From a virus, in IMG/VR virus record IMGVR_UViG_3300009678_001574: a DNA stretch of 64,000 bases; one strand, given 5' to 3'. The first letter of the stretch is position 1. Each line of letters starts with the position of its first letter. Under the pieces are notes generated by a model. It saw only the letters and a list, made by a program, of their open reading frames with translations, searched no databases and had not been told where the DNA came from. Made by a program: the position numbers and the translations under genes. Below, piece after piece: positions 11,082-24,995 of the stretch.

Positions 11082-11090
11082 GAGTAGATT

Positions 11091-11480: not shown

Positions 11481-11797
11481 TGGCTAACTTCGACGAAATA
11501 CTTACTAAAGGCAAGGGCAAAGTCAAAGGCTCTGGCGGAACTAAAACTAAAAAAGACCAATGGAAAGAACATATTAGTTTGCTCATAACCATTATGACCA
11601 AACTCAATGGTATGTATGGTGCCGATGACAAGCATCATTTTCTAGTAGAACAAGCAAAATGCGGGAAGTGCAACAAGGTAACGTATCTGATTGCTATCAG
11701 GGATATTGAAAACAATAAACAGGTAATCAGATTTCATAATTCTTCTTGGAAGGTGATTAGCAAAGACACCTATCACTGTGATGTGTGCAAGAAGTAA
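11480..11797 (+). CDS. Hypothetical zinc-ribbon protein
   Basis: CGKC and CDVC pairs. Confidence 0.5.
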   Translation: MANFDEILTKGKGKVKGSGGTKTKKDQWKEHISLLITIMTKLNGMYGADDKHHFLVEQAKCGKCNKVTYLIAIRDIENNKQVIRFHNSSWKVISKDTYHCDVCKK

Positions 11798-11807
11798 TGA
11801 GGTTAAA

Positions 11808-12905
11808 GTGAATACTGTATTGGTAGACTTACAGTTAGGCGATTGTGGGAAAGGAAAGATAGCAGATCATTTAATGGAAGAACATGACATATGCGTTAGA
11901 TACTCTGGTGGGCCTAACACCGGAACAACCGTATGGACGAATGGAATTAAATATAAATTACATCATCTCCCTGTTGGACTCTTACGAAACAAGCCGAGCT
12001 ATATAGCACAAACTTGTCTAGTGAATCCTGCCAAGTTGATGAAAGAAATAATTGAATTAAAAGAATTGGGCTTTGATGTGGATAAGAATTTGAAGATTTC
12101 TCCACACTGTCACGTAATTACACAAGAACATATAGAGCGTGATATAGCTAATGAAACGAGCGGCTTAAGTTCTGGCGGCGTTGGTTCGACAAAGCAAGGT
12201 ATATCACCTTGTTCCCAAGACAAATACGCACGCAAGGGAATTCGTTTAGTAGAGCACGGCGGCTTTGAAAAATACTTGGCCGATGTACCACTTGATTTGA
12301 ACCATGCCATCAAACGCGGTAAGAGTATTTTATTTCAAAGCTCACAAGGTACGATGTTGGATATAGACCATGGTAATTATCCGTTTGTTTCTACAACCTC
12401 TAATATTGCCGGTGCAGCAGCTATGGCATGTGGCATAGGCCCACAATATATAAATAAGGTTATTGGTGTGTTTAAGCCCTATCTAACTTATGTTGGTGTG
12501 GGTGAATTCCCAACTGAAATAGCTGATGAGCAAGTTAATGCAACAATAGCAGAACGAGGCTATGAGTATGGAACTACCACAGGCCGTCGGCGTCGTATCG
12601 GTTGGTTAGATTTACCAGCGCTTGCTTATGCCTGTATGATTAACGGAGTACAAGAATTGGCTGTTACCAAGTCTGATGTACTAGAAGATATGCCAGTTCA
12701 ATATAGTGATCGTTGTTTGTTAGAAAATGGCGCATCCATTTATCTGCCATTTGACCATAAATATAAGGCTTGTTTAAAGAATGCTGATAACGTTAGAGAC
12801 CTATTGTATATTGTTACGGAAGACCTCAAGCGTATATACGACTTGGGTATTAGATTAAAATATATTTCCACAGGTAAGAATAGGGAAGAGATGAGGATAC
12901 TATGA
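11808..12905 (+). CDS. purA: Adenylosuccinate synthetase (short form)
   Basis: QLGDCGKGK, R.SGGPNTG.T, G.GSTKQGI, QGTMLDIDHG.YPFV, YGTTTGR.RRIGWLD; GTG start with GAGG RBS. Confidence 0.92.
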   Translation: MNTVLVDLQLGDCGKGKIADHLMEEHDICVRYSGGPNTGTTVWTNGIKYKLHHLPVGLLRNKPSYIAQTCLVNPAKLMKEIIELKELGFDVDKNLKISPHCHVITQEHIERDIANETSGLSSGGVGSTKQGISPCSQDKYARKGIRLVEHGGFEKYLADVPLDLNHAIKRGKSILFQSSQGTMLDIDHGNYPFVSTTSNIAGAAAMACGIGPQYINKVIGVFKPYLTYVGVGEFPTEIADEQVNATIAERGYEYGTTTGRRRRIGWLDLPALAYACMINGVQELAVTKSDVLEDMPVQYSDRCLLENGASIYLPFDHKYKACLKNADNVRDLLYIVTEDLKRIYDLGIRLKYISTGKNREEMRIL

Positions 12906-13192
12906 AGGAATTTGTAGATGCTATGGGTAACTTTGTTGAGATGTCCAAGCAATTAAAAAATAGCAACCCCTACAATAAAAAAAGTAAAAAGAACAGATGG
13001 CTAAAATGTGTTCGCTTACTTGAAGAAGGCTGGACAAGCACCGGCTGTGAAGACTTTGAAGATTCAGATGACCTTATTTTTACTTGGGCAAAAGGCGAAC
13101 AAATTCAAAAAATAAGACTGTCTTTTCTAGAACAAAAATTATGGCTAGAATATTTAGAGAAGAATTGCGGGGAAAAAAATGAGCAACAGTAA
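12902..13192 (+). CDS. Hypothetical protein
   Basis: 96-aa ORF. Confidence 0.5.
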   Translation: MKEFVDAMGNFVEMSKQLKNSNPYNKKSKKNRWLKCVRLLEEGWTSTGCEDFEDSDDLIFTWAKGEQIQKIRLSFLEQKLWLEYLEKNCGEKNEQQ

Positions 13193-13736
13193 TAACAGCA
13201 ATAACGCAAATTGGGTAAATAGCACGTCGGGCAATGTTATAGTTGCTACCGGTACAACTACGAGTAATAATTCAAGTGCAGTAGCAATTGGAAGTAATTC
13301 TGGCTGGTATGTTACACCTTCAACTACCACAGCAGTTGGTGTTATAGGAACTGGCGGTTATCAGCCCTATGGCGGAACGATTTCAATTGGTGGATCAACT
13401 ACTATTAACTATAAGCCTGATCACTATTATATAATGAAGTTGCCAGAAGAAGTTAAAAAGAAAATGCCAGAGAGTATTTACATTAATGGCATGTTGGCAA
13501 GTTTAGGAATGTTTGGTTCTGATGTAGATGTTGCCTTTACAGGACAAGACCTAATATTTCAGTCTGGTGTGTTGCGTGCTTTAACTTTTAACAACAAAGT
13601 TAAAATAGCAATATACTACAAGAAAAAAATATACCATTTCAAGTGCGAGCCAGATGCATTCGGCGGCGGTGTAGCCACTATATCAGAAAACTCCAATATT
13701 ATAATTACCGAATTATTAAGCACGATTGAACGTTAA
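13179..13736 (+). CDS. Hypothetical protein with N/S/T/G-rich low-complexity N-terminus
   Basis: MSNSNNSNNANWVNSTSG...TTT; globular C-terminal half. Confidence 0.6.
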   Translation: MSNSNNSNNANWVNSTSGNVIVATGTTTSNNSSAVAIGSNSGWYVTPSTTTAVGVIGTGGYQPYGGTISIGGSTTINYKPDHYYIMKLPEEVKKKMPESIYINGMLASLGMFGSDVDVAFTGQDLIFQSGVLRALTFNNKVKIAIYYKKKIYHFKCEPDAFGGGVATISENSNIIITELLSTIER

Positions 13737-14994
13737 TGGACATTGGTGTTCGTTTAGCGTATATGGTGATGTTGTCAGCAGATAGAGTATCTATCAAAAA
13801 GATACATCACGAATTAGTTAAAAGCTCCGAATTATTTTACTATCTAGATAAAACAAAATTCGATTGGAGTAACTTTGGACAGCAACGAACTAATACAAAA
13901 AAGGGGCGAAAAGATATTCCTTGATAACACGGAGATAACACCTGAAATAATAAAGTGCGTCTATTTTTTTATGTACTCACACGGCCACCTTTTGGATACC
14001 GAGCACGTCATTCACGATATATACGTTGAGCGACGATATTGGGATCCAGATGAGTGGCCTTCTTCTTTACCGGCGTTAAGCACGATAAGCCTGGAAAATA
14101 TTGCGGCCACCGATTTGTTAATCAAGCATCTTGGCACAAAAGAAAATATAATAATACCCGAAATCAAATTGTTATACCTGCTAGCCCTTGACTATGGCAA
14201 CTTTGACTTGCTAGATTCAATACAACCATCAGAAGACTTATTTGCGCAGCTAGATAGTGTCTTTCCGGATGCCTACCGTTACAACCTTCCCTTCGCGGTT
14301 AAAATGTATCATCGTATAAAAGAAAAGAAACTCTTCAACACGATTAGGTTCAAGTAGGCCTCGTGTTAGTGTATAATCCTCGTATGAAACAAGAATTCAC
14401 CACACAATCTATGAAAATTTCTGATGAAAAAGTCATCCATCGTATATACTGGCAATACTTCCAGTATGGTGTTGTGCCTTCACGTAAGAATATGTTAGGT
14501 CCGGCTCAACGATTGGCTTTCGTAGCTTTGGCTATGTGGTGCTCTACCAGTGGAATTATATTGGATCATTTTCTCGAAGCCTTAGATGATTATGAGTAGA
14601 ATGGATAGTACTATAAGATTTATGTACAAACTAGCGCTACTAGAAAAAATGCGGTTAAAAAGATTTGTATTGCAATATTACGATATTCAGGCAGTATTAA
14701 AACATCAAGATAGATTAATAAAAATAGATTTACCTGATGCTGTTTGTTTCATAGAGGCTTATGGAAGTGGAAAGTAAAGTTAAGTGTTTATATCTAATGA
14801 TACTAGGCGAGCAGTTAGATATAAAGAATTTTTATCGTAAGTGGAAATCGGATTATTATTCAGAGAAGAGCCCTTATTTTAGAAGTGTTAGAGATAGAGT
14901 AAGGCGCATGTGTAATACAAAGTTCTTAGATACGCCGATTAGTTATGTCGATATCGGTAAATTTATTGAAGATAATATAGGGTTTGGTCGATGA
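13736..14994 (+). CDS. First block of hxxhYxxxL-family ORFs (13736-13924, 13875-14357, 14363-14599, 14586-14777, 14761-14994)
   Basis: MDIGVRLAYMVML, PEIIKCVYFFMY, KVIHRIYWQYF, MDSTIRFMYKLAL, ESKVKCLYLMIL. Confidence 0.55.
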
Positions 14995-15593
14995 CAATAT
15001 TATTAGCTATTTTATTAGGTTTAGTATATTCAGAGTTTGTTGGTTATTGGATACATCGTTTATTACATAGTGAGAAGATACCTGCGTTAAGTAAAGACCA
15101 CATGATACATCACCTCAAGCTTTACAGTCCGAAGGGTTCGATGCGGTCAGAAACCTATCTCAGAGCGACTGGGGAGCGGTTTAGCGTGGGAAATATAGGT
15201 GTTGAGTGGTTAGCTCCCTTAGCGGTCGTGATCGGGGCTACAATCGCATTTATGACAGTTTTAAGCATTTCGGTCTTGAGCCAATTTTTGTTCCTCGGTT
15301 CAGCGATACTTTGGGGTATATTTGGATTTAGTTACATACACGACGGGTTACACGTCAGTAACTTTTGGATGCTTAACAACCACTTTATAAATGCTTGGTT
15401 TAAAAAGATAAGACGGCTACACGATATTCATCATACTAAAATAACTAACGACGGCAAGATGCACGTAAACTTTGGCATGTGCTTCTTTATATTAGACCGT
15501 ATATTCGGGACCAAAGCAGAAGTTACGGGGCGCTTTAACGATGCCGGCTATGAAGAGGCAAAGAAGCGTTACTCATTCATAAATAAGGAATAA
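14991..15593 (+). CDS. Fatty-acid hydroxylase / sterol desaturase superfamily membrane enzyme
   Basis: Histidine boxes HRLLH, HMIHH, HDGLH and HDIHH with TM helices; NFG motif. Confidence 0.8.
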   Translation: MTILLAILLGLVYSEFVGYWIHRLLHSEKIPALSKDHMIHHLKLYSPKGSMRSETYLRATGERFSVGNIGVEWLAPLAVVIGATIAFMTVLSISVLSQFLFLGSAILWGIFGFSYIHDGLHVSNFWMLNNHFINAWFKKIRRLHDIHHTKITNDGKMHVNFGMCFFILDRIFGTKAEVTGRFNDAGYEEAKKRYSFINKE

Positions 15594-15597
15594 TCCT

Positions 15598-16110
15598 ATG
15601 GGCAGACCACGGAAGACTAGAATTACCAAAGAACAAATCATTGCTTATCGAGAAGAGAAAAAGATACCTTCTTACAAGCGCAAGAAAGATATTAAACCTG
15701 GACCTTGGACTAATGTAGAAGTTGATTTTCAAGTGGAAGCTAAATTAAGGTTCTCTAAACACGTAATAGAAAAGTTTGGCGAGACCTGTGGTTCCTACAC
15801 CGATGATTCTAACTGGAACGAGAAAGGTTGGTATCCGGTCGTATTTAATATACTTGTCGACGGGCTAGATGAGTTAGTAAAGAAACACGGAGTAGATAAG
15901 GTTCTAGCAGCTTGTGAGAATAGTTTATGTGAGGCTATCGATGCTGAAGGTAAAACCAAATATGGTGATTTGATTATACTTCAGTTAGGCTCCGACAACT
16001 CACAAAACCCAGACCCAGCAAGGCGCTTCTTGTCGTGTCATGGGAAAACTAATAGAAAATTCATTGAGGGCTTTATGGCTAACAGGTCAGGCGAATATAA
16101 AAAGATATGA
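15598..16110 (+). CDS. Hypothetical protein
   Basis: 170-aa ORF with basic N-terminus. Confidence 0.55.
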   Translation: MGRPRKTRITKEQIIAYREEKKIPSYKRKKDIKPGPWTNVEVDFQVEAKLRFSKHVIEKFGETCGSYTDDSNWNEKGWYPVVFNILVDGLDELVKKHGVDKVLAACENSLCEAIDAEGKTKYGDLIILQLGSDNSQNPDPARRFLSCHGKTNRKFIEGFMANRSGEYKKI

Positions 16111-19100
16111 AGCCAGAGATATTTGTAACCTATTTCTTGTTGCTGTCAGGTAAAGGTATAATTGAAAAGGTAAGGGAACAAACTGTTAAAATGATGATGG
16201 AGTATCGTCGCTCGGAAGACCCTGCCATAAGAGTTGCGTATCAAATGTTAGTTCTCGATGCACTCAAAAGGTGTAAGTATAGAGAGGACGATGTCAATAG
16301 GCTATTGAGTATGCCAGAAGACTGGGATAGTTTTATAAGCAATTATAGGTAAATTAATCAACAATTACCTGATTTTAGGAGTTTTTGTGAGACCAACAAT
16401 ACAGATGATAGAGCCAGAGATATACGCAACTTATAGGCTGATACTTGATAATAATATATCACCACAGCGCGCCATAAGACTCTGGGCTGATACCAAAAGC
16501 ACTTATTACGAAAACAATACAGGCCGCGGTAAGTTGAAGATTATTTTAGGCCAATATATACAAGACTTTTGGGCTAAATGTAATACCAAAGAGATGTCAG
16601 AAGATAAGGAAGTAATTGAATTCATAAGGAAATTTCAACCAAAGCCATGGTGGAAACTCTGGTAATGACAACCATAGACGCCAAGGTATATGTCACTTAT
16701 AAGTTGTACTTTGATTGGAATTTTAAACCAAAAGATGTACAACATTACTGTGCTTGGTGGAAGTTTTTAGGTGGAATGGAGCGGTCAAATAGAGATTCGG
16801 TAATCAGTATAACTCAAAGAGCACTATACGAATACTATATGAAGACTCCCTTAGCGCTTCAGAATTTAGACGGAATTGATATAGTAAAGTTCATTCTTAG
16901 ACACCAATTTGATACCACTTGGGCCCGTATAAAAAACATCTTTTGGGGCGTTGGAGCTATTGTATTAAAAACTATATTCGGCGTGTAAGCCATTGAGTAA
17001 AATACATAGCCAACTATTTGATATTGTTGGATAATTTGGAACTTTAAACGAACACTAGGAAAATGAAAGAATTGTATAAAACAACCTGATTTTTACACAA
17101 TCATAAAGGCATTGTAAGTCCTTGATATTATTAGATAATTTCAACTCACTTTATACGGTGGTCTTTCATGAACGAAGCAATCAAAGAAATATACGCGGCA
17201 GCCCTCAAACACAAGAACAAATTGGAGCTACACGACACACACGACGGCGGCTACGAGGTTGAGGTCATACTGAACTTTGAGGAGTTGTCTTACCGCTATC
17301 GATTGCCAAGACCAACTGGAGAACTCAAAGATGAAACGGATTGATGACGAGGTTAGACTTTGTTACATCTTCGTTCTAACAGAAGGACGTATGATGAGGA
17401 ACCACTATGAAGACGACCGCGGTATCTACGTCGCAGTCTTGAACTCGAAGAAGCTACCAATACCTATCGACGTTTACTTATTGGAGAAGAGATGAACTAC
17501 GAACTACAAGATATATACGGCGCTCACTTCAAGGGCTTACGCTTTGAGTTCGTCCAAGCGCGGTATAATGAGTTCCAAGTTACTATCATCGAAGAGCAGG
17601 ACAAAGGCTGGCTAACAAGAACAGTCTTCGGTCTTACGCCAGAAGGAATAGGGCCGCCGCTCTTTATAAGTGAGATGCCATGGCCGAAGTGATGCCCGAC
17701 GAGCTATACGACTTATACCGTTTCGTGCTAGAGGACGGCTGGGTAATAGACCAGCACGAGCTTACGGTATTCTTGAGAGAGCCACTAACAGAAGACTTAG
17801 AACCAGTTGTTGTCTACCTACAACGCTTTACCTATGAGCCAAAGAAATGAGCCTAGATTCAACCTTACTACAGCTACAACAAATCTTTGGTAATAGCATT
17901 CACGCCTTGTACCAATACCACTTCCACAACTATACGTTCCTCCAAGACGGGCTAAAGGTGACTGTCGTATTCCACGAGAACAGCATACCGCATGAGATAA
18001 CCTTGGTAAACCTAGATGTTGGATGAAGGCTTTAAGTGTTTGTACTCGCTCTTATTAACGGGCAAACCAATGGTTACTGATATGATTTGGGACGAGCAGT
18101 TCATACACGTTTTCACCCAGGACGGCTTCATACACTTGGATTTCGTGGCTAGGCGATTAGAGGTCTATGGCACTAGGTTCTACGCAGGCCAACTAATACT
18201 CCCGGCGGCTGGAGACTATTCGATTTCTATTAAGGAGAATTTCTTTGGATAGAGAGATAATGCACACTTATGAGCTGTTCTTAGGGCGCTATATTATTAA
18301 CGACGGACGCATTAACAAGGTAGTTAAATTCCCCTTTTATGCTTGCGGCGGTACTTGTCAATCAGGGATAAGCGGAACTAAAGTTATCTTTTGCACCAGT
18401 TGTAAGTACCCAGAAGGACACTATTGTTATATAGACTACGTAACTGGTATTACCTATGAGACCAGAGACTCATCATTACAAACGCCTTATTGGATATTGG
18501 AGGCTAGGAAGAAGCGTGAAGCTATACCACAAGAAGCGACCTAATCGTTATTATAACTTAAAAGACTTATATATTTTTGTATTCGACGGCTATGAGATAG
18601 AGGAAGCTGAGGTAGTAGAACATTCAAAGACTATAGCTGTTAGTTTCAAATTTCCTAATGAGCCTAGGTGCACAGGAGCGGCTTTCAGGACGGACACACG
18701 AGATGAGCTTGTTAGGAAAGCGTAAGCCTGGAGAGCCCAACACCTTAAAGGACCTATACCGCCACTTACTAGAACAGGGCTTCAAAATAACCGATTATAC
18801 TATCGAACCAAATACTTTATTGATTAATTTAAAGATAACCAAGAAGACTACGTGGGCTATATTGGAGAGATTCGAAACACATCTATGAGCATATTACCTA
18901 AACAAAAAGACCTATTTACCAATACGCCTCATCAATCTGTATTAGGCTTATATAAAGCTGTCTTAATACACAAGCAGCCGGTTAAAGAGGCGATTAATGC
19001 TCTACCTAGTTTCAGTTCTTTTTCTATAGGGTCAGACGGGATAGTAGAGTTGTTTCATATATTCGATATGCGTGCCTATTTTGAACGAACGGGCTACGAT

Positions 19101-19398
19101 ATAACAAAGAACCAATGACTAAAGAACACAAGCAGTTATACCTAAACCTTTTATTGGGCTTTAAGGTGGTAGAATCGAGCTGGATAAGTATTCAGGGCGT
19201 TAGGTATTATAAAGTGAGTGTAACGGGACCAGATTCCATACCACCTCACAATACAACTATTTACTTGTGGAATCCATGACAAACCGATTATTCGATACCA
19301 TTAGGTTGTTAAGAGTCTATAGGGCCGTATTAGAGGAGCAATTACCACTAACAGAAGCTTTGTATTACTATTTACCCGAACTGTCTATATACTTATAA
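16107..19398 (+). CDS. Second block of hxxhYxxxL-family ORFs (16107-16352, 16387-16665, 16665-16988, 17168-17344, 17331-17495, 17492-17692, 17692-17850, 17847-18026, 18016-18252, 18245-18544, ~18520-18725, 18703-18888, 18885-19118, 19115-19279, 19276-19398)
   Basis: Hand translation including sub-60-aa ORFs; mostly overlapping or abutting start/stop junctions, many ATGA overlaps; shared N-terminal Tyr-Leu helix. Confidence 0.6.
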
Positions 19399-19435
19399 AC
19401 ACTTATACAACTGCTATATAAGCAATTATCCACCG

Positions 19436-19460
19436 AGGCCCTTTTTAGGGCCTTTTTTAT
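19436..19460 (+). terminator. Intrinsic terminator closing the AT-rich region
   Basis: aggccc-ttttta-gggcct followed by ttttt. Confidence 0.75.
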
Positions 19461-19504
19461 TTAAATATACCTATAAACCTGCGGTGGCGGTGGGTCTGCA
19501 AAGT

Positions 19505-19730
19505 TTGCATAGTGCGCAATCCGGAATCGCTGGCCTGTATAACCTTTTTGCATATCCCGCAACTTTTGCATACAACGCAGCGGAATGCGGTAGGAAAAGA
19601 TTGCATACCTCGCAAACATTGCACAATCGCCACGAATTGCGGACCCGGAAAAGATTGCATACGTCGCAAAAATTGCATACCGCGCAGGCCAAAACGGCGC
19701 CGAACCACGCAAAAATTGCATACGTCGCAA
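19505..19730. repeat. Array 1 of TTGC-N7-GCAA palindromes
   Basis: Perfect copies at 19505, 19548, 19601, 19655, 19716; imperfect at 19566, 19619, 19673. Confidence 0.9.
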
Positions 19731-19741
19731 GTTTTTTTTTC

Positions 19742-19771
19742 TTGACAACGCACCGCGTCATGCGGCAAAAT
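19742..19771 (+). promoter_or_regulatory. Sigma70-like promoter P1 with palindrome in spacer
   Basis: TTGACA-ACGCACCGCGTCATGCGG(18)-CAAAAT. Confidence 0.6.
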
Positions 19772-19867
19772 GGTCGCACAATCGAGGCAAGGCTAGCGGC
19801 ATGGTGCCGCTAATGCCTCGGGAAAGGTATCTCGCAAAATTTAACGCACCGCGTCGGTCGAATTTGC

Positions 19868-19897
19868 TTGCTAACGCGGTGCGGCATGTGAGATACT
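19868..19897 (+). promoter_or_regulatory. Sigma70-like promoter P2 with palindrome in spacer
   Basis: TTGCTA-ACGCGGTGCGGCATGTGA(18)-GATACT; another copy of the palindrome 30 bp upstream (19844). Confidence 0.5.
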
Positions 19898-19952
19898 TGG
19901 AAAATCAACAACGGGCAAGGCATGACGCCAGGCCCACGAAAGGGAAAGCACA

Positions 19953-20228
19953 ATGAACACCGTCCAGACCAGCACCGTCCCCGCCATCGTCGAGACCCCG
20001 GAGCAGGAGCTCACCCGTCTCCGCGCCGAGAATGAGGCGCTCAAGGCTGTCAAGGCCCAGGGTATCAAGGGCATGAAGGTGAGCGAGAAGGGCGCCTTGT
20101 CCATCTACGGCCTCGGTCGCTTCCCGGTCACGCTGTACCGTAGCCAGTGGGAGGCCCTGCTCGCCAAGGCGGAGGACATCAAGGCCTTCATCGAGGCGAA
20201 CGCGGCGAAGCTCAAAGCCAAGGAGTAG
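19953..20228 (+). CDS. Early protein A; coiled coil plus PC4-like beta module
   Basis: GC-rich codons; KVSEKGALSIYGLGRFPVTLY..QW; fold assignment is inference. Confidence 0.75.
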   Translation: MNTVQTSTVPAIVETPEQELTRLRAENEALKAVKAQGIKGMKVSEKGALSIYGLGRFPVTLYRSQWEALLAKAEDIKAFIEANAAKLKAKE

Positions 20229-20232
20229 CTCA

Positions 20233-20303
20233 GGCCGAAACCTAGGGCGCGCTAGTACAGGCGCCCGATGGTCTACGGGTATGGTGCCCGTACTGAGGAG
20301 GCC
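20233..20303 (+). ncRNA. Hammerhead ribozyme (type II, open stem II); predicted cut after 20273
   Basis: GGCC-GAAAC ... GUC / UACGGG-7nt-CCCGUA (stem I) / CUGAGGA-GGCC; complete CUGANGA, GAAA and GUC core. Confidence 0.9.
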
Positions 20304-20306
20304 GTC

Positions 20307-20546
20307 ATGGAAGGTTTGCACGTCGAGTTGCGCCGTCTGCGCATGAAGCCAGCGCCCATGCCCGTGAGTCCGCGTGAGGCTGTCGAGCCCACGCCTACGC
20401 CTGCCGCCGTCAAGGTGGTCAAGGTGTTCAACTCGGGTAGCGCCGAGGAGCGGAAGTTTGCCGAGAACATGGCGGTTATCGCCACGGCCTACCGCAACGG
20501 GCTCATCACGGAAGCCAAGGCCCAGGAGCTCGCGGCCAGACTGTAG
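20307..20546 (+). CDS. Early protein B
   Basis: GC-rich codons; RBS GAGGAG lies in the hammerhead core. Confidence 0.6.
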   Translation: MEGLHVELRRLRMKPAPMPVSPREAVEPTPTPAAVKVVKVFNSGSAEERKFAENMAVIATAYRNGLITEAKAQELAARL

Positions 20547-20580
20547 GACACACATACACACACACCTATGCGTGTGTGTC

Positions 20581-20645
20581 GGGATGCAAGCTATCACCTC
20601 CGCGTGGTGCATCCTGGGCAGGCATGGTGCCTGGCTAACGATGGC
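20581..20645 (+). ncRNA. HDV-like ribozyme 1; predicted cut between 20580 and 20581
   Basis: P1 GGGAUGC/GCAUCCU (G1.U wobble), P2 GCUAUC/GAUGGC, P3 ACC/GGU, L3 UCCGCGU, P1.1 CC/GG, P4 CAGGCA/UGCCUG, J4/2 GCUAAC with catalytic C20635. Confidence 0.9.
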
Positions 20646-20659
20646 AGAAAGTCACGGTC

Positions 20660-20857
20660 ATGTGTCGTGCGGACATTCGACGCCGCGTGGTAGCGGTGTT
20701 GGCCAACGGGTCTATGGGTCCGGGCGCCTTGCAAGATACGCTCTTCGACTTGGAGAGCCGCGAGGTGGCACGGGAATTGCGCGAGCTTGTGAAGCGCGCC
20801 GCCGTGAAACACAACGGCAAGGTCGGTCGCGGCAGTAGGTATGCCCGCGCCGTGTAG
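20660..20857 (+). CDS. Early protein C, small winged-helix-like
   Basis: VVAVLANG.M....L...L...VARELRELVK..AV...G..R...Y; fold is inference. Confidence 0.6.
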   Translation: MCRADIRRRVVAVLANGSMGPGALQDTLFDLESREVARELRELVKRAAVKHNGKVGRGSRYARAV

Positions 20858-20868
20858 GACATACGCCG

Positions 20869-21096
20869 TTGCACACTACGCAACGGTAGGACGGTAAGCA
20901 ATCTGCCTCCGCGTGGCACCGTCCGGGTAACGCTAAAGATTGCACAGTAGGCAAAGGTTGCATAGTACGCAACTCTTGCACACTGACACACACATACACA
21001 TGCACCTAGTTGCATAGTACGCAATCGTTGCGTACCCAGGACGAAGTGGCGTGCTCGCAGAAATTGCGTAGCCCGCAAACTTTGCATACCTGGAAA
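20869..21096. repeat. Array 2 of TTGC-N7-GCAA palindromes
   Basis: Perfect copies at 20869, 20940, 20958, 21010, 21064; imperfect or half sites at 20976, 21028, 21082. Confidence 0.9.
20889..20943 (+). ncRNA. HDV-like ribozyme 2 (minimal P4); predicted cut between 20888 and 20889
   Basis: P1 GGACGGU/ACCGUCC, P2 GCAAUCU/AGAUUGC, P3 GCC/GGC, L3 UCCGCGU, P1.1 CC/GG, J4/2 GCUAA with C20933. Confidence 0.85.
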
Positions 21097-21105
21097 GTGT
21101 GTGTG

Positions 21106-21180
21106 ACGCGGTGCAGCAAAATTTTGACGCGGTGCGTCGGTCGATTTTTGTTGACAACGCGGTGCGTCAAGCGGCAAAAT
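21106..21180 (+). promoter_or_regulatory. Sigma70-like promoter P3 with three ACGC-N3-GCG operator-like sites
   Basis: TTGACA(21151)-ACGCGGTGCGTCAAGCGG(18)-CAAAAT; sites at 21106, 21127 and 21157. Confidence 0.65.
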
Positions 21181-21233
21181 CGGTTTCACAATCGGCGCAA
21201 CGGAAACGGCGCCGCCAAGGGAAAGGACACGGC

Positions 21234-21437
21234 ATGACACTGACACCGGCTTATGGTCGGGACTACAAGAGCAAGGCAGAGGTCGAGGCAGCCTGGGACG
21301 GCGGTAAGGATTTCCAGATTGCCAGCGTGGGGCCGTGGATGGGCTCCTACGTGACCAAGCGGGAGCTGGCGGGTAACGAGAAGGAAGTAAGCATCCGTTA
21401 CGCCAAGCTCTCGAAGGTGGTAGTCCTGAAGGTGTGA
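21234..21437 (+). CDS. Early protein D
   Basis: MTLTPAYGRDYKSKAEV...GKDF; GAAAGGA RBS; GC-rich codons. Confidence 0.75.
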   Translation: MTLTPAYGRDYKSKAEVEAAWDGGKDFQIASVGPWMGSYVTKRELAGNEKEVSIRYAKLSKVVVLKV

Positions 21438-21462
21438 ACGCAGGGCCGGCTAGTACAGCGGC

Positions 21463-21549
21463 CCTAGTCTAAAGCAGCCGGCAGTAGTTAGGCCGCCAGT
21501 CCAAAGCCTGGGAAAGCTCCTAACGGAGTTCAATGCTGATGGGACCTAG
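21463..21549 (+). ncRNA. Twister ribozyme 1; predicted cut 21470/21471
   Basis: U^AA-AGC-A-GC, P3 CGGC/GCCG, P4 CCAG/CUGG, L4 UCCAAAGC, P5, then GCU-GA-UGGG; P2 AGC/GCU and T2 UCCA/UGGG covary relative to other copies. Confidence 0.85.
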
Positions 21550-22155
21550 TAGTGAGGCTTAGTGAGTAGGTAAGGGCGTAGGTAGTTACTGCCACGTTCG
21601 AGACTCAGGCGAAAGTCAGCCAGGTCGAAGGCGTAGCATATACCGACGATAACCTCCAAGGGGCTAAGTAAGCGAACGGCGGTGTTGGCAGCGTGAGCCG
21701 TAATCATGCTGTAGTCTGGTAAGCGGGACTTTAACTCGGCTAGGTGGTGACTCTCACTCGTGTTGGTAGCCACGTTACGGTTGCCCGGTGACTAGGACTC
21801 GCATGGGAATCAGCCCTGCCTAGACAACTTCACAGAGCTTCGGCTCTTGGATTCTATCAGCTTGCGCTTCTGGTAAGGCATATAGCTTTACTCGAAGGCG
21901 TGGTTAGTGGGCTGATAGTCTTACGCTCTCGCAGTTAAAGAGAGCACGCACATGACCACACTCCTCGTTAGGCTTAGATTATGCTAAGCCACGAAAAACT
22001 CGCTTGGTGAGTGGGCCTATTTGGCTGACACCACAAGCCTGCGAGCGGAGTAGTGGTGGCGTGTTTTCGCCAAGCCTAACGAGCGCTTTAGGGGCCGCGC
22101 AGTTCAACCGCGCAATGGTCCCAGAGTTGTGGGTTACCTTGGTGCAAGAAAACCC
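21546..22155 (+). ncRNA. Candidate large structured ncRNA between twisters 1 and 2
   Basis: No convincing long ORF; long-range helices 21574-82/21920-28, 21854-61/21911-18, 21964-75/22072-83; UUCG hairpin 21834-47. Confidence 0.55.
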
Positions 22156-22220
22156 TCGTAATGCGGCAAGCGTATGCTTACGGTCACAAGCCCGTGTAAA
22201 CGCAGAGTGAGAAAGACGAG
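22155..22220 (+). ncRNA. Twister ribozyme 2; predicted cut 22159/22160
   Basis: U^AAUGCGGC, P3 AAGC/GCUU, P4 ACGG/CCGU, L4 UCACAAGC, GCA-GA-GUGA (T2 UCAC/GUGA). Confidence 0.92.
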
Positions 22221-22222
22221 TC

Positions 22223-22435
22223 ATGGATTACTCGTATCTGAAGCATTTGTCCGATGCTCAGTTGCGTACACTCAAGGTCCGGTACGCAATGGCAAAGGGC
22301 AACAGTTGGGAACACAAGCTCTTTTGCGCCGTGGATAGAGTGCTTACCGACCGCGAAGGCGTAACGCACTTCAAGACCGGGCGCATGGGAGACTGCCTGC
22401 ACATGGACCCACTCATGAACCCGAAAGGAATCTGA
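22223..22435 (+). CDS. Early protein E
   Basis: 70-aa ORF directly after twister 2. Confidence 0.6.
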   Translation: MDYSYLKHLSDAQLRTLKVRYAMAKGNSWEHKLFCAVDRVLTDREGVTHFKTGRMGDCLHMDPLMNPKGI

Positions 22436-22438
22436 CCG

Positions 22439-22882
22439 ATGAGCACACAGGAACCCAAAGACAAACCCGGAGTCGTCAACGGCTCCTTCGTCCGCAAAGA
22501 CTTCTACCTCTCACCGCCCGTCAAGGGAGCGCCGGTGGAAGCGTGGGAAGCCTGGCAGAAAGCGGACGACTTGCTTGCCGCCAACGCCAAGCGGAAGCAC
22601 ACCAAGAGCCTCAAGCACGAAGAGGTGCCTGAGTTCCTCCAGCCCAAGGTGCTTAGCAAGGTTGGCGGCGTCTACCGGCAGTCGGCGATGGTGGGCTTCA
22701 TCGGGGACGGAGATACCGCCCGAGTGGAAGCGGCCGTGGATGCCGAGCAGGGCAAGGTGCTGGCGCTCAACTCCTTCCGTCATGGTGGGCGTGGGCAGCA
22801 GACCGCTAGTCGCTCTGGTTCGGCCAAGCGTGCAGCTCGACGGGCAGCGAAGGAAGCCCGCCGCAAGAATACTCGGCACTAA
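22439..22882 (+). CDS. Early protein F (basic C-terminal tail)
   Basis: GC-rich codon usage. Confidence 0.7.
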   Translation: MSTQEPKDKPGVVNGSFVRKDFYLSPPVKGAPVEAWEAWQKADDLLAANAKRKHTKSLKHEEVPEFLQPKVLSKVGGVYRQSAMVGFIGDGDTARVEAAVDAEQGKVLALNSFRHGGRGQQTASRSGSAKRAARRAAKEARRKNTRH

Positions 22883-22901
22883 CACACAAGGGCGCTCACC
22901 C

Positions 22902-22970
22902 GCCCGCTAATGCAGCCTGGAGCAATCCCGCTCTAGCCAGTCACAAGCCTGGATAAATGCAGAGTGGCAT
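22902..22970 (+). ncRNA. Twister ribozyme 3; predicted cut 22908/22909
   Basis: U^AAUGCAGC, P3 CUGGAGC/GCUCUAG, P4 CCAG/CUGG, L4 UCACAAGC, GCA-GA-GUGG. Confidence 0.92.
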
Positions 22971-23040
22971 GTAGGTGGTAGGCACACATATACACACACA
23001 CCTACATACACATACAGTGTGCCAAGAAAGGGTTAAGTAC

Positions 23041-23328
23041 ATGACTGCTACCGAATTTCTCAAGAGCAAGAACGTTCCCTTCGATGGCTTGGATGCGGGC
23101 CAGTGCCGCACCATCGCCAAGGCCTACGGCTGGGCTGCTCCGAAGGCGGGCGTCAGCGTGGTGAGCTACACGCCGACCCAGAGCAAGAAGGGTCCGGGCC
23201 TCTACCTCAAGGTGGAGATCGAGGGAGCGCGTGAGGGCATGTTCCGCCTCTGCGACGGCAACGAGCTCACCCCGGCGGCCCGTGAGGTCATCGCCACCAT
23301 CGGCAACGACTGCGCCGACCTGCTGTAA
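23041..23328 (+). CDS. Early protein G
   Basis: ATG at 23041; GC-rich codons. Confidence 0.7.
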   Translation: MTATEFLKSKNVPFDGLDAGQCRTIAKAYGWAAPKAGVSVVSYTPTQSKKGPGLYLKVEIEGAREGMFRLCDGNELTPAAREVIATIGNDCADLL

Positions 23329-23356
23329 GACAAAGGCACCTGGGCAAGTGTAGAAA

Positions 23357-23420
23357 CTGCCCTGTTAATGCGGCCGGGATAGCCCGCAGGTCACAAGCCC
23401 TGGTAAACGCAGAGTGGCAC
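23357..23420 (+). ncRNA. Twister ribozyme 4; predicted cut 23366/23367
   Basis: U^AAUGCGGC, P3 CGGG/CCCG, P4 CAGG/CCUG, L4 UCACAAGC, GCA-GA-GUGG. Confidence 0.92.
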
Positions 23421-23438
23421 CTCAAACCGGGAGTGAGC

Positions 23439-23789
23439 ATGGGAAGCAGCAACCACAAAGGCATGGACACGTACAACCGCATCATCACCGACGCGCGAGC
23501 CACTGGCAAGCCTATCGGTCCGCAGTTCCACAAGTTCGACTTCCAGCGCAAGATATGGGAGAAGATGAACCTCACCCAGCCGGAAGCGAAGGTGCTCACC
23601 CAGACCCGTACCGCCCAAGCCGTCGTGACCAAAGACCAGACCCGAGAGGCCATCAAGGCCAAGCTCACGGTCAAGGTCACAGCGCCACAGCCTCAGTCCC
23701 TCCGCGAGAAGTACCAGGCTGAGCAACTCAAGAAAATCGCGGACGGCTACAAGGTCGAAGAAGGCATCAAGTACGTCAGCAAAGAGTAG
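23439..23789 (+). CDS. Early protein H
   Basis: GGAG RBS; GC-rich codons. Confidence 0.7.
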   Translation: MGSSNHKGMDTYNRIITDARATGKPIGPQFHKFDFQRKIWEKMNLTQPEAKVLTQTRTAQAVVTKDQTREAIKAKLTVKVTAPQPQSLREKYQAEQLKKIADGYKVEEGIKYVSKE

Positions 23790-23975
23790 TCCCACCCACA
23801 CGGAAGGAAAGGACATGCTGCGTAAAATTTAGCGCCAGTGGCTAAGGCGCGGTATAAGTGCCCACCTACTCCCTTGCGCCTGGACTTGGGAATCAGTAGT
23901 TAAAGCAGGCTGGATACACGGGAGCTACTCATGCTCTGCTCGTGACCGTGTATCGAGATATTGTAGGTAGAGCAA

Positions 23976-24038
23976 TGTTGTTAATGCCACCTGCATAGTG
24001 CAGCCGGTTCCAAGTCCGGAGAAGGCAGAGGAACAACA
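23976..24038 (+). ncRNA. Twister ribozyme 5; predicted cut 23982/23983
   Basis: P1 UGUUG/CAACA, U^AA-UGCC-AC, P3 CUGCA/UGCAG, P4 CCGG/CCGG, L4 UUCCAAGU; T1 AC/GU and T2 UUCC/GGAA covary. Confidence 0.92.
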
Positions 24039-24051
24039 CAAGGAGAAGCCA

Positions 24052-24213
24052 ATGCTCAAGCACAGCCTCGGTGACAAGCTCCGCCCGTTCATCCGTGAAA
24101 CCGTCAAGGCCAACGTGGAGAAGGCCAACCCGCATCTCACCAGCAACCCCAAGCTCCTCGACAACGTGACCCGCTCCATCATCACCAAGGGCCTCGCTCC
24201 TCTGTACCTGTAG
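24052..24213 (+). CDS. Early protein I (53 aa)
   Basis: AGGAG RBS right after twister 5; GC-rich codons. Confidence 0.7.
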   Translation: MLKHSLGDKLRPFIRETVKANVEKANPHLTSNPKLLDNVTRSIITKGLAPLYL

Positions 24214-24248
24214 CTCTCCCGCCCTCTATTGGACTCAGAGGCATGTGA

Positions 24249-24323
24249 GTCCTTAATGCGGCTAGGCACGGTCAAAGCCTAGGAGTCCCAAGCCTCCACA
24301 AACGCAGAGGGATACGAAAGGAC
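24249..24323 (+). ncRNA. Twister ribozyme 6; predicted cut 24254/24255
   Basis: U^AAUGCGGC, P3 UAGGC/GCCUA, P4 GGAG/CUCC, L4 UCCCAAGC, GCA-GA-GGGA. Confidence 0.92.
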
Positions 24324-24429
24324 GTGTATGTATCATAAGTAAGCGCCTAGAAAACTAGTAAGGGCGCAACGACAGAAATACTTACCTAGCACACTCACGT
24401 ATACCTAGGCAATGTGCGTGAGTGTGTGA

Positions 24430-24488
24430 CAGTGTAATGCGGCTATGAGTGGTCCCAAGCCCACCTGAGAAACGCAGAGGGAATCACA
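24430..24488 (+). ncRNA. Twister ribozyme 7 (no P3); predicted cut 24435/24436
   Basis: U^AAUGCGGC, P4 GUGG/CCAC, L4 UCCCAAGC, GCA-GA-GGGA. Confidence 0.9.
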
Positions 24489-24502
24489 ACAAAGGAGAAA
24501 GT

Positions 24503-24724
24503 ATGCTCAAGGTCATTGGTGCGATCACGTTGGTCGGTGGCTTGGCTTTCGGTGCGGCCTACTTCGGCGGGTACATCGACGGCAAGGCAGAGGTTCAGGT
24601 CACGGAGCAGGGTCGCAAGGCTGCTTCGGACACTCTTCGTAGCGCGCAGCAGGGCATCAGCAACGGGCTGAACCGTGCGGCTGATGCGGTCCACAGTGCC
24701 GAGGTTCCCAGCACCCAGCGGTAA
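24503..24724 (+). CDS. Early protein J, N-terminal membrane anchor
   Basis: AAAGGAG RBS; MLKVIGAITLVGGLAFGAAYFGG. Confidence 0.75.
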   Translation: MLKVIGAITLVGGLAFGAAYFGGYIDGKAEVQVTEQGRKAASDTLRSAQQGISNGLNRAADAVHSAEVPSTQR

Positions 24725-24914
24725 GTCGTAGGTTACATAGCTAATCATCCGTCGCCGAAAGGGAAAGGGAAAGGGAATAGTACACAAGCGCCAAGTTAAA
24801 GACGCTCTAAGGCGTAAGCCTACTTGAGCACACTAACAGTAACACGGCGCATCCTTTGAACGAGTAGGAACAGGTCGTTGATTAGCGTTTGATTAAAAGG
24901 CGGGTTAAATGTCC

Positions 24915-24995
24915 TGCCTCAATGCAGCTAGATGGATGCCCTATCTGTCTAACGGTCCCAAGCCCGTAAAGCGCAACGCAAATGCAGAGGGTACA
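24915..24995 (+). ncRNA. Twister ribozyme 8; predicted cut 24920/24921 (C^A)
   Basis: C^AAUGCAGC, P3, P4 ACGG/CCGU, L4 UCCCAAGC, small P5 GCG/CGC, GCA-GA-GGG. Confidence 0.85.

What the first reader, a model, noticed from the sequence alone, without database searches (positions are those of the whole stretch)
21471..22159. 689-nt largely ORF-free RNA excised exactly between twisters 1 and 2
Seen in sequence: the longest gap of the early operon is bounded by two twister cut sites. It has no credible long ORF; only an 11-codon MTTLLVRLRLC follows the phage-typical cacgcacATG context at about 21952. It carries long-range helices: gggcgtagg 21574-82 with cttacgctc 21920-28, ctatcagc 21854-61 with gctgatag 21911-18, and a perfect 12-bp ctcgttaggctt 21964-75 with aagcctaacgag 22072-83. 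There is also a cUUCGg hairpin and a T-loop-like gttcaac. Inference: a phage large ncRNA with ribozyme-defined ends, potentially circular, expressed immediately after infection (protein sponge, anti-defence decoy or scaffold). It does not match tmRNA, RNase P or group I signatures that I can recognise.
Basis: partly seen in the sequence, partly recalled or inferred. Interest (0 to 1): 0.82.

Follow-up and report, generated by a model that had tools for sequence, protein, structure and literature searches.

The report
Ribozyme-released large structured phage RNA
A roughly 600-nucleotide gene-free stretch of an uncultured large phage encodes a previously undescribed, intricately folded RNA that self-cleaving ribozymes cut out of a longer transcript, and it always sits just upstream of the same small basic protein gene.

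Summary
Sub-threshold but convincing twister-P1 matches at 21466-21546 and 22155-22213 predict cuts at 21470/21471 and 22159/22160, so the product is exactly 21471-22159. The 608 nt between the ribozymes is non-coding under every stop-codon reassignment tried, and it is the most ORF-poor stretch of the window.

I found 11 further distinct homologues in metagenome contigs. They show a conserved multi-domain fold:
- In the 3' domain, 94% of cells are paired, against 74% in shuffles and 36-42% in slid controls.
- 38 of 52 pairs in that domain show compensatory changes.
- A covarying long-range helix ties the 5' and 3' domains together.

The third helix and the 11-codon ORF are not.

No Rfam family matches the RNA body. 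In relatives the 3' end is made at the equivalent position by an HDV-like ribozyme instead of a twister. In one subfamily a sigma-54-like promoter motif replaces the 5' twister, which argues against circularity as a family trait.

A 147-aa protein gene with a basic tail follows the RNA in 12 of 12 loci.

Best reading: a new class of large trans-acting phage ncRNA, possibly the RNA part of a ribonucleoprotein. Its function is not known.

The parts
21145..21180 (+). Sigma-70-like promoter candidate (TTGACA-18-CAAAAT). It is a near-duplicate of 19736-19771 and is preceded by an array of TTGCATAC..CGCAA repeats of 18-nt period at 20932-21096.
   Evidence: Consensus match only; function is inferred.
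21234..21437 (+). Upstream 67-aa gene of the same transcription unit. Conserved upstream of the RNA in subfamily A.
21466..21546 (+). Twister-P1 ribozyme 1, with an extra inserted hairpin. The predicted cut is between 21470 and 21471. The ribozyme core stays on the 5' end of the released RNA.
   Evidence: Homologous twisters in L011, L013, L014, L005 and L027 score 51-63 bits. The two-nucleotide contact GUC[NN]AAGCC / GA[NN]G covaries between copies (CA/UG here, GC/GC in L011, AC/GU in twisters 2-4).
21471..22159 (+). Predicted excised RNA product, 689 nt: twister-1 core plus a 613-nt structured body.
21547..21829 (+). 5' domain of the RNA body. It holds the near-invariant GGUAGGUARG (21567-76; the window itself reads AGUAGGUAAG) and CUCCRAGG...GCGAACGG motifs, plus covarying hairpins at 21688-21712, 21716-21743 and 21762-21789.
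21615..21621 (+). 5' strand of the long-range helix (GUCAGCC) that pairs with 22023-22029.
   Evidence: pair types AU:6/GC:5, CG:7/AU:2/UA:2 and GC:6/UA:2/AU:1. Mapped to window coordinates.
21830..22160 (+). 3' domain, the most conserved part. Covariance model R1 matches it at 274.6 bits. There is one copy per locus and none elsewhere in the window.
21834..21847 (+). c(UUCG)g-capped hairpin. The stem covaries. Subfamily B has GNRA-like loops at the same position.
21854..21918 (+). Helix CUAUCAGC / GCUGAUAG enclosing a covarying hairpin (21867-21897) whose loop AUAUA is conserved.
21862..21866 (+). 5' strand (UUGCG, part of the conserved GCUUGYGC) of the helix that closes the 3' domain by pairing with UGCAA at 22143-22147.
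   Evidence: One-sided changes only: 96.7% paired, no double compensations.
21900..21959 (+). Helix GUGGUUAGUG / CACAUGACCAC, 10 pairs of which 6 covary. In the window clade it encloses a lineage-specific insertion at 21920-21942.
21964..22083 (+). It encloses a sub-domain with the conserved UUAUGC loop and GGGCCU...GGCUGACACC.
   Evidence: helix 4: 7 of 7 pairs with changes on both sides
22023..22029 (+). 3' strand (GGCUGAC) of the long-range helix that pairs with 21615-21621.
22091..22122 (+). Covarying hairpin with a 7-nt loop GUUCAAC (22102-22108). The loop pattern N-U-N3-A-C is kept in 11 of 12 homologues (L008 departs), which is compatible with a T-loop.
22155..22213 (+). Twister-P1 ribozyme 2. 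The predicted cut is between 22159 and 22160. It stays on the 5' end of the downstream mRNA. In 8 related loci an HDV-like ribozyme takes its place.
22223..22435 (+). 70-aa gene of no known family. It lies between the RNA and the 147-aa gene only in subfamily A, and is not found there in L027.
22439..22882 (+). 147-aa protein gene with an invariant GGVYRQS core and a Lys/Arg-rich C-terminal tail. It is the first or second gene after the RNA in all 12 loci. Candidate protein partner.
   Evidence: No family, fold or PDB lead.

Best explanation
The region encodes a new family of large (about 600-780 nt), multi-domain, trans-acting non-coding RNA of an uncultured large phage lineage.

How it is made.
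- It is transcribed as part of a polycistronic + strand transcript, probably starting at the promoter-like site near 21180.
- It is released co-transcriptionally by two self-cleaving twister ribozymes.
- Twister 1 cuts at 21470/21471 and remains as a 76-nt 5' appendage with a 5'-OH.
- Twister 2 cuts at 22159/22160. This leaves a 2',3'-cyclic phosphate 12 nt past the helix that closes the 3' domain, with almost no foreign sequence attached.

What it does. The body folds into two domains locked together by a long-range helix (21615-21 with 22023-29). It carries many invariant unpaired nucleotides, as expected for an RNA that makes specific tertiary or intermolecular contacts. Separation from the downstream mRNA is conserved in the 11 loci where it could be assessed, through two different ribozyme classes. 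The mature RNA therefore most likely works as a free molecule rather than as a leader.

The most likely partner is the small basic-tailed 147-aa protein encoded directly downstream. It is co-transcribed with the RNA, so the two are made together, which would give a phage ribonucleoprotein acting during infection.

Shown: sequence conservation, covarying structure, the non-coding nature of the region, ribozyme motifs at both ends, and gene linkage.

Inferred: actual cleavage, action in trans, binding to the protein, and timing of expression. The biochemical activity is unknown.
For: Homologues and structure.
- nhmmer and the covariance model find one copy per locus in 11 further distinct metagenome loci, at 209-285 bits for the 3' domain.
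- RNAalifold on 5 full-length close relatives gives 169 pairs, 39 of them compensatory.
- On 11 full-length members it gives 71 pairs, 48 compensatory, including the inter-domain helix.
- The pair count on the 3' domain gives 94.1% paired against 74.5% in shuffles (0 of 500 reach it) and 36-42% when partners are slid. The covariation score is 0.586 against 0.09-0.11.

Non-coding.

Ends.
- Twisters flank the RNA in the window, L011, L013 and L005.
- In L008, L010, L014, L015, L016, L017, L027 and L048 an HDV-like element sits at the equivalent 3' position, 8-14 nt after the closing helix. P1 pairs 7 of 7 with five different sequences, P2 covaries, P3 is GCC/GGC with a 7-nt L3, and J4/2 reads C-N-A-A.
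- Convergent use of two ribozyme classes at one site indicates that the processed 3' end matters.

Linkage. The p147 homologue follows the RNA in 12 of 12 loci, including the two loci found with an RNA-only pattern. p147 has a conserved Lys/Arg-rich tail.

No Rfam family matches the body even at E <= 10 on a 791-nt query.
Against: - No experimental data of any kind. All members come from uncultured metagenome contigs.
- All twister matches are below Rfam's gathering score, and the HDV-like call rests on my own motif analysis plus a non-significant CM hit (13.5 bits, E 2.5).
- Ten of the 12 loci were found through the p147 protein, so the linkage statistic is biased. Only 2 loci are independent.
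- The p147 model is poor (pLDDT 57), and nothing identifies p147 as RNA-binding beyond its basic tail.
- The alignment used for one search was fitted to the model, which inflates pairing somewhat.
- With only 12 related sequences, part of the covariation signal reflects shared ancestry.
Confidence: 0.6

Rival explanations
1. Cis-acting element. The structured RNA acts on its own transcription unit while nascent, and the released RNA is only a by-product. Examples would be a put-like processive antiterminator, a folding or pausing platform, or a regulator of the downstream p147 gene.
For: In subfamily B the RNA lies directly after a promoter-like motif, at the head of a long run of small genes, and directly before p147. 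It is always co-oriented and co-transcribed with p147.
Against: A ribozyme severs the RNA from the downstream mRNA in the 11 loci where it could be assessed, using two ribozyme classes. In subfamily A a gene and a twister precede the RNA, so it is not at the 5' end of the transcript. A length of 600-780 nt with inter-domain helices is far beyond known cis-antiterminator or leader RNAs (my knowledge of put, EAR and riboswitch leaders).
Confidence: 0.12
2. RNA-only machine. The RNA is itself catalytic (a new large ribozyme), or it self-assembles into a homo-oligomeric particle as ROOL, GOLLD and OLE do, without needing p147.
For: Size, multi-domain architecture, long-range helices and many invariant unpaired positions are the hallmarks used to nominate large ribozymes and ornate RNAs. 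Two conserved hairpin loops contain palindromic AUAU/UAUA cores (21880-84 and 21978-83) that could form kissing dimers. ROOL and GOLLD are phage- or prophage-associated and form RNA-only cages (PMC12286853).
Against: There is no sequence or Rfam relationship to any such RNA. No substrate or assembly evidence exists. The strict linkage to p147 suggests a protein partner.
Confidence: 0.15
3. Circular RNA. The 5'-OH and 2',3'-cyclic phosphate ends left by the two twisters are joined by an RtcB-type ligase into a stable circle.
For: The end chemistry produced by twister cleavage is the RtcB substrate (established knowledge). Both ends of the window RNA are ribozyme-made.
Against: Subfamily B lacks a 5' ribozyme and has a promoter-like motif instead, so its 5' end would be a triphosphate. 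Eight loci use an HDV-like 3' ribozyme with no matching 5' partner of the same class. A circle would retain an intact twister core and be prone to re-cleavage. Only a 3-bp GGG/CCC pairing links the ends. No ligase gene was seen in the window, although only 64 kb is visible.
Confidence: 0.05
4. Non-functional spacer or decayed gene or mobile element that merely lies between two ribozymes.
For: There is no known function. The family is rare, with 12 distinct sequences in very large collections.
Against: Nucleotide conservation runs across members whose flanking protein is only 45-60% identical. There are pervasive compensatory substitutions and invariant motifs across both subfamilies. There is no residual reading frame.
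Confidence: 0.03

Closest known systems
ROOL and GOLLD (large ornate RNAs of phages and prophages; Rfam RF03087, RF01998)
   Same: More than 500 nt, intricately structured, encoded by phages, defined by covariation, function unknown. A stand-alone RNA product rather than a leader.
   Different: No sequence or CM similarity. ROOL and GOLLD usually sit near tRNA genes and are not known, to my knowledge, to be excised by flanking self-cleaving ribozymes or to be tied to one specific small protein gene.
Twister / hammerhead ribozyme-rich loci and their associated RAGATH motifs (Weinberg 2015, 2017; PMC5737381)
   Same: Several self-cleaving ribozyme classes are clustered on one strand among small phage-like genes. 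Structured RNAs of unknown role are found next to such ribozymes.
   Different: The RAGATH motifs held in Rfam are small and none matches here. Here the ribozymes delimit a 600-nt RNA precisely, and two ribozyme classes are interchangeable at its 3' end.
Retrozymes and viroid-like circular RNAs (ribozyme-excised RNAs)
   Same: An RNA unit is cut out of a longer transcript by flanking small ribozymes, leaving 5'-OH and 2',3'-cyclic phosphate ends.
   Different: Those use the same ribozyme in direct repeat and circularise. Here the 5' ribozyme is dispensable in one subfamily, the RNA is DNA-encoded in a phage operon, and nothing indicates replication or circularity.
HDV-like ribozymes at the 5' ends of coding RNAs (R2 / L1Tc retrotransposons; theta ribozymes of gut phages)
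   Same: In 8 relatives an HDV-like fold cleaves at its own 5' edge. It frees the upstream RNA and leaves the ribozyme as the 5' cap of the downstream mRNA.
   Different: This element starts with C rather than the usual G at +1 and is not detected by Rfam models at significant scores. The window itself uses a twister at this position.

Membership tests
twister-P1 ribozyme (RF03160): the two flanking elements | Match to the family covariance model at or above the curated gathering score (67.2 bits) | tested here: not met
   37.9 and 56.4 bits. E-values are 1.4e-6 and 6.6e-12 for the 791-nt search, so the matches are significant but below the curated cut-off.
twister-P1 ribozyme (RF03160): the two flanking elements | P1-UAA-P2 ... 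GCC ... GUCNNAAGCC ... AAA ... GAGNG architecture, with covarying stems and a covarying pseudoknot | tested here: met
   Full-length model alignments (1-68 of 68) are shown. P2 is compensated in twister 1 (AGCA/UGCU against UGCA/UGCA in L011). The pseudoknot dinucleotide covaries between copies (CA/UG, GC/GC, AC/GU, CC/GG).
twister-P1 ribozyme (RF03160): the two flanking elements | Self-cleavage at the U^A step | not testable with these tools
   Needs in vitro transcription and a cleavage assay.
HDV-like ribozyme (element replacing twister 2 in 8 relatives) | Nested double pseudoknot: P1 (7 bp), P2, P3 (3 bp) with a 7-nt L3, P1 3' strand directly after P3, and J4/2 carrying C-N-A-A | tested here: met
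   P1 pairs 7 of 7 in all 8 loci with 5 distinct sequences. P2 is 5-6 bp with 5 distinct sequences. P3 is GCC/GGC with L3 UUGACGU. J4/2 reads CCAA, CUAA or CGAA.
HDV-like ribozyme (element replacing twister 2 in 8 relatives) | Significant match to an Rfam HDV-type model; G at +1 forming a G.U pair | tested here: not met
   Only a local 13.5-bit hit (E 2.5) to RF02682. P1 begins with C-G, not G.U.
Known large ncRNAs (GOLLD, ROOL, OLE, HEARO, raiA), RNase P, tmRNA, group I and group II introns, rRNA fragments | Match to the family covariance model | tested here: not met
   No hit to any of 4227 Rfam 15 families in 21547-22154, even at E <= 10 with lax filters. ARAGORN finds no tmRNA or tRNA there.
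Circular ribozyme-processed RNAs (retrozyme / viroid-like) | Ribozymes at both ends in all members, and ends brought together for ligation | tested here: not met
   Subfamily B has no 5' ribozyme. Only a 3-bp end pairing is predicted.
Protein-coding gene or pseudogene | An open frame under some code, codon periodicity of substitutions, and indels in multiples of 3 | tested here: not met
New family defined here (provisional) | Conserved sequence plus covarying secondary structure across independent loci | tested here: met
   12 distinct loci.

The most novel reading that the evidence does not exclude
This is the founding member of a new class of large functional RNA: either a ribozyme or the RNA core of a phage ribonucleoprotein formed with the p147 protein. 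Its exact termini are so important that evolution has recruited two unrelated self-cleaving ribozyme classes (twister and an atypical HDV-like fold) to generate the same 3' end. If so, it is a natural case of ribozyme-based maturation of a non-coding RNA in a DNA phage.
Probability: 0.3. Interest if true: 0.9.

Novelty: new variant of a known kind. Interest (0 to 1): 0.8.

Why it matters
Fewer than a dozen classes of bacterial or phage RNAs longer than 500 nt with complex conserved folds are known. Nearly all of them turned out to be ribozymes, ribonucleoprotein cores or, recently, self-assembling RNA cages. A new class with clear covariation is therefore a direct lead to new RNA biochemistry.

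The biological role of bacterial and phage twister, hammerhead and HDV-like ribozymes is a long-standing open question. This locus gives a concrete, testable role: they dice a phage polycistronic transcript into defined units and mature a non-coding RNA, with different ribozyme classes interchangeable at one site.

The RNA-p147 pair and the short DNA needed to reconstitute it (about 1.5 kb) make the hypothesis testable in vitro, even though the phage is uncultured.

Tried and rejected
- blastn and megablast against 50,697 phage records found no match to the RNA or to 20 kb around it.
- Relatives of the upstream 67-aa protein in IMG/VR (L001-L004) carry neither the RNA nor twisters.
- The 147-aa protein found nothing in IMG/VR.
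- Three further DNA-pattern scans of IMG/VR gave only chance hits or none: L018, L019 and L077-L085.
- The metagenome pattern scan returned 34 stretches, of which only L027 and L048 are true members.
- The GTDB genome scan returned 23 stretches, all chance matches.
- MFE z-scores do not discriminate between the strands.
- Stop-codon recoding (TAG, TGA, TAA) was rejected.
- The motif GCCTTGACGTGGCG was first considered as a repeated phage promoter. That was rejected because it occurs once per locus and not at all in the window. A sigma-70 reading was rejected on spacing.
- The structure prediction of p147 was too poor (pLDDT 57) to justify a fold search.
- Pfam, PHROGs, a PDB profile search and the ESM Atlas gave no lead for p147 or its neighbours.
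- A search for targets complementary to the near-invariant GGUAGGUAAG in the window gave nothing notable.
- Literature searches found no description of this RNA or of such a ribozyme-bounded ncRNA.
- I did not type an 838-column structure string into the count of structure pairs for the full-length alignment. The pair table is used instead.
Full report
**1. What is at the coordinates**

The window is a + strand-only stretch of an uncultured large phage.
- It carries nucleotide-metabolism genes: RNase HII, thymidylate kinase, ThyA, DHFR, an IMPDH/GMP-reductase-family protein and a PurZ-like adenylosuccinate synthetase.
- It also carries an HNH endonuclease, an amidase, two tRNAs and many small genes of no known family.
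- No deposited phage is close to it.

At gathering thresholds Rfam reports only the two tRNAs. With E-value thresholds it reports eight twister-P1 matches, all on the + strand and all intergenic, between 21466 and 24995 (E 2e-11 to 3e-5). Further upstream it reports weaker HDV-like (20579-20648, 20887-20964) and hammerhead-II (20233-20310) matches.

The finding lies between the first two twisters, 21466-21546 and 22155-22213. Both align over the whole model. Twister 1 has an extra inserted hairpin and compensated changes in P2. The two-nucleotide tertiary contact (GUC[NN]AAGCC with GA[NN]G) covaries among the copies: CA/UG in twister 1, GC/GC in its orthologue in L011 and L013, AC/GU in twisters 2-4, and CC/GG in others.

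Twister cleaves at the U^AA step next to P1 (established knowledge, recalled rather than looked up here). The product keeps the twister-1 core (76 nt) at its 5' end and ends a few nucleotides into twister 2.

**2. The region is not coding**

- Between the ribozymes (21547-22154) the longest + strand open run is 66 codons.
- No reassignment of any stop codon opens the region.
- The region is unusually rich in TAG: 31 per kb against about 10 per kb in the flanks.
- It is the stretch with the shortest open frames in the whole window.
- Against homologues, 9 of 11 and 11 of 12 indels are not multiples of three, and substitutions are spread evenly over the three codon positions.
- The 11-codon ORF at 21952 loses its start codon in three of the four close relatives.

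**3. Homologues**

The downstream 147-aa protein (22439-22882, called p147 here) has 15 relatives in the 5.8-billion-protein collection. Their contigs all show a gene-free gap of 770-1840 nt upstream.

nhmmer with the 689-nt query, and then with a profile, detects the RNA in every one of these contigs. A DNA-pattern scan of JGI metagenomes added two loci found independently of the protein, L027 and L048.

This gives 12 distinct sequences in two subfamilies:
- Subfamily A: window, L011 (=L012), L013, L027, L014, L016 (5'-truncated), L005 (=L006, L007). Identity to the window is 65-92%.
- Subfamily B: L015, L017, L010, L048, L008 (=L009).

Subfamily B is alignable to A along the whole length. 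It has a 5' extension of about 110 nt and internal insertions. It shares the motifs GGUAGGUARG (the window, L011, L013 and L014 read AGUAGGUAAG), CUCCRAGG...GCGAACGG, GCUUGYGC, GGUGGGC and UUAUGC.

No member was found in IMG/VR, in GTDB representative genomes, or in four more distant phages that share the upstream gene. The family is rare and confined to one phage lineage.

**4. Structure**

RNAalifold on five full-length subfamily A sequences predicts 169 pairs, 39 with compensatory double changes. On eleven full-length sequences of both subfamilies it keeps 71 pairs, 48 of them compensatory.

A covariance model of the 3' domain (R1, 312 positions) finds exactly one copy per locus at 209-285 bits and nothing else in 391 kb.

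Pair counting on the model-fitted alignment gives these figures:
- 94.1% standard pairs, against 74.5 +/- 1.1% in shuffles (0 of 500 reach the observed value).
- 36-42% when partners are slid by 1-3 columns.
- 38 of 52 pairs with changes on both sides.
- A covariation score of 0.586, against 0.09-0.11 for the slid controls.

The alignment is fitted to the model and the sequences are related, so these figures are somewhat generous. The margin is nevertheless large.

In window coordinates, the supported elements are:
- Hairpins at 21688-21712, 21716-21743 and 21762-21789.
- The c(UUCG)g hairpin at 21834-21847, which has GNRA-like loops in subfamily B.
- CUAUCAGC/GCUGAUAG (21854-61 with 21911-18), enclosing the 21867-21897 hairpin whose loop AUAUA is conserved.
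- 21900-09 with 21949-59.
- The 11-bp helix 21964-74 with 22073-83, with 9 covarying positions.
- The 21971-90 hairpin with the conserved loop AUUAUG.
- The 22091-22122 hairpin, whose 7-nt loop keeps N-U-N3-A-C in 11 of 12 members (L008 departs), compatible with a T-loop.
- A domain-closing helix 21862-66 with 22143-47.
- A long-range helix 21615-21 with 22023-29 that ties the 5' and 3' domains together. In all of subfamily B its A-U pair is replaced by G-C, and two further positions also covary.

Its 3' strand lies in an insertion of about 18 nt found only in the window, L011 and L013.

**5. The ends are what is conserved, not the ribozyme**

In the window, L011, L013 and L005 both ends are flanked by twisters. 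L014 and L027 have the 5' twister, and L016 is truncated at its 5' end.

In L014, L016, L027 and all of subfamily B, twister 2 is replaced by a single-copy motif containing GCCUUG(A/U)CGUGGC. I tabulated it in eight loci. It has the topology of an HDV-like ribozyme:
- A 7-bp P1 that is perfectly paired in all eight loci with five different sequences.
- A 5-6-bp P2 between J1/2 and the region after P4, again with five different sequences.
- P3 GCC/GGC around a 7-nt L3, with the P1 3' strand directly following P3.
- A variable or absent P4.
- J4/2 reading C-(C/U/G)-A-A.

Rfam's F. prausnitzii HDV model aligns P1-P3 locally, but only at 13.5 bits, and P1 starts with C rather than G. I therefore call it HDV-like in architecture, not a proven member.

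HDV-type ribozymes cut at the 5' edge of P1. This puts the RNA 3' end 8-14 nt after the domain-closing helix, the same place as in the window, where it is 12 nt. Two unrelated ribozyme classes thus generate the same 3' end.

At the 5' end, subfamily B has no ribozyme. Instead it has a motif, at the homologous position in all five loci, that matches the sigma-54 promoter consensus in sequence and spacing: TGGCAC-N5-CTGC.

The window clade instead has an upstream gene (21234-21437) preceded by a sigma-70-like promoter candidate at 21145-21180. This candidate is a near-duplicate of one at 19736-19771. Each sits behind an array of TTGCATAC..CGCAA repeats.

**6. Linkage**

A p147 homologue is the first gene after the RNA in L027 and in subfamily B. 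It is the second gene, after the 70-aa gene, in the rest of subfamily A. Overall this is 12 of 12 loci, including the two found without using the protein.

p147 has an invariant GGVYRQS core and a Lys/Arg-rich C-terminal tail. It has no Pfam, PHROG, PDB or Atlas relative, and its AlphaFold model is poor (pLDDT 57).

**7. Interpretation**

Shown: a conserved, non-coding, multi-domain folded RNA, with ribozyme motifs positioned to release it, and strict synteny with p147.

Inferred:
- The ribozymes cleave.
- The RNA acts as a free molecule. The argument is that separation from the downstream mRNA is preserved through two ribozyme classes.
- p147 is its partner.

I put 0.6 on 'trans-acting processed ncRNA, probably a ribonucleoprotein with p147'. 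The first clause alone is much more secure, at about 0.9 for 'real structured ncRNA family with ribozyme-defined 3' end'.

Rivals:
- A cis-acting co-transcriptional element: 0.12.
- An RNA-only catalyst or self-assembling particle like ROOL and GOLLD (PMC12286853): 0.15. This is not exclusive of the main reading.
- A circular RNA: 0.05. It is disfavoured because subfamily B lacks a 5' ribozyme, the circle would retain an active twister, only 3 bp link the ends, and no ligase is seen.
- Junk: 0.03.

**8. Comparison and novelty**

The RNA is not a member of any Rfam 15 family. I found no paper describing it or describing a ribozyme-bounded large ncRNA in a phage.

In kind it is closest to the large ornate phage-associated RNAs (ROOL, GOLLD) and to the structured motifs found near twister and hammerhead ribozymes (RAGATH; PMC5737381). 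It differs from them in three ways: precise excision by ribozymes, interchangeability of ribozyme classes at its 3' end, and an invariably linked small basic protein.

I rate it a new variant of a known kind, meaning a new class of large structured phage RNA, with high interest. It is a new complex RNA fold, and it is also one of the clearest natural contexts in which a role for bacterial and phage self-cleaving ribozymes can be tested.

Noticed in passing
window 20233-24995: A ribozyme-punctuated operon. Eight twister-P1 matches lie at 21466, 22155, 22904, 23362, 23978, 24250, 24431 and 24916, with two HDV-like matches (20579-20648, 20887-20964) and one hammerhead-II-like match (20233-20310). 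All are on the + strand and sit between nearly every pair of small genes. The layout is conserved in related contigs.
   Followed up: partly
L008:1741-1812, L015, L017, L010, L048, L014, L016, L027 (motif GCCTTGACGTGGCG): An atypical HDV-like element. P1 starts with C, P4 is optional, and J4/2 reads C-N-A-A. It replaces twister 2 at the RNA 3' end in 8 relatives. Rfam models do not detect it at significant scores, so it may be an unrecognised HDV-like subclass.
   Followed up: partly
L008:945-959, L010:3402-3416, L015:422-436, L017:1009-1023, L048:630-644; window 20766-20780 and 48978-48992: A sigma-54-type promoter consensus (TGGCAC-N5-YTGC) with correct spacing lies at the homologous position upstream of the RNA in all five subfamily B loci. 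Each of these loci also has one minus-strand copy. Two exact + strand copies occur in the window. Sigma-54 promoters are unusual in phages.
   Followed up: partly
window 19498-19771 and 20932-21180: Two arrays of 18-nt-period repeats (TTGCATAC-N3-CGCAA-N4). Each is followed by a near-identical promoter-like sequence, TTTTT(C/G)TTGACAACGC...GCGGCAAAAT. They look like duplicated regulated promoter regions with operator arrays.
   Followed up: no
window 19435-19462: A strong intrinsic-terminator-like hairpin with a T-run lies just before the GC jump and the first repeat array. It may mark the end of the preceding transcription unit.
   Followed up: no
window 1-64000: G+C rises abruptly from about 38-43% (1-20000) to 58% (20000-24000), then declines steadily to 44% by 64 kb, with all genes on one strand. 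The ribozyme/ncRNA block is the most GC-rich part. I have no explanation for this.
   Followed up: no
window 11778-12905: An adenylosuccinate-synthetase homologue whose best match is the phage PurZ family (phrog_1211). A PurZ-like gene also lies upstream of the RNA in L009. This hints at a 2-aminoadenine (Z) genome.
   Followed up: no
window 20539-20568, 20979-21008, 22975-23014; also 5' of the p147 homologues in L008, L010, L015, L017, L048: CA-rich leaders (ACACACAUACACAC...) lie immediately upstream of ribosome-binding sites and start codons. In the HDV-like loci part of this tract forms the P2 3' strand.
   Followed up: no
window 21437-21464 and 20239-20266: A repeated hairpin, GGGCCGG-CUAGUACA-GCGGCCC, lies directly upstream of twister 1, and a similar one sits at the hammerhead-like site. 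It would form a stable 3'-terminal hairpin on the upstream mRNA after cleavage (family D10).
   Followed up: no
window 24316-24430 and 24725-24915: Two further ribozyme-bounded or ribozyme-adjacent stretches without a credible ORF. They may be additional small processed RNAs.
   Followed up: no
window 21920-21942: An insertion specific to the window, L011 and L013 within the RNA.
   Followed up: partly
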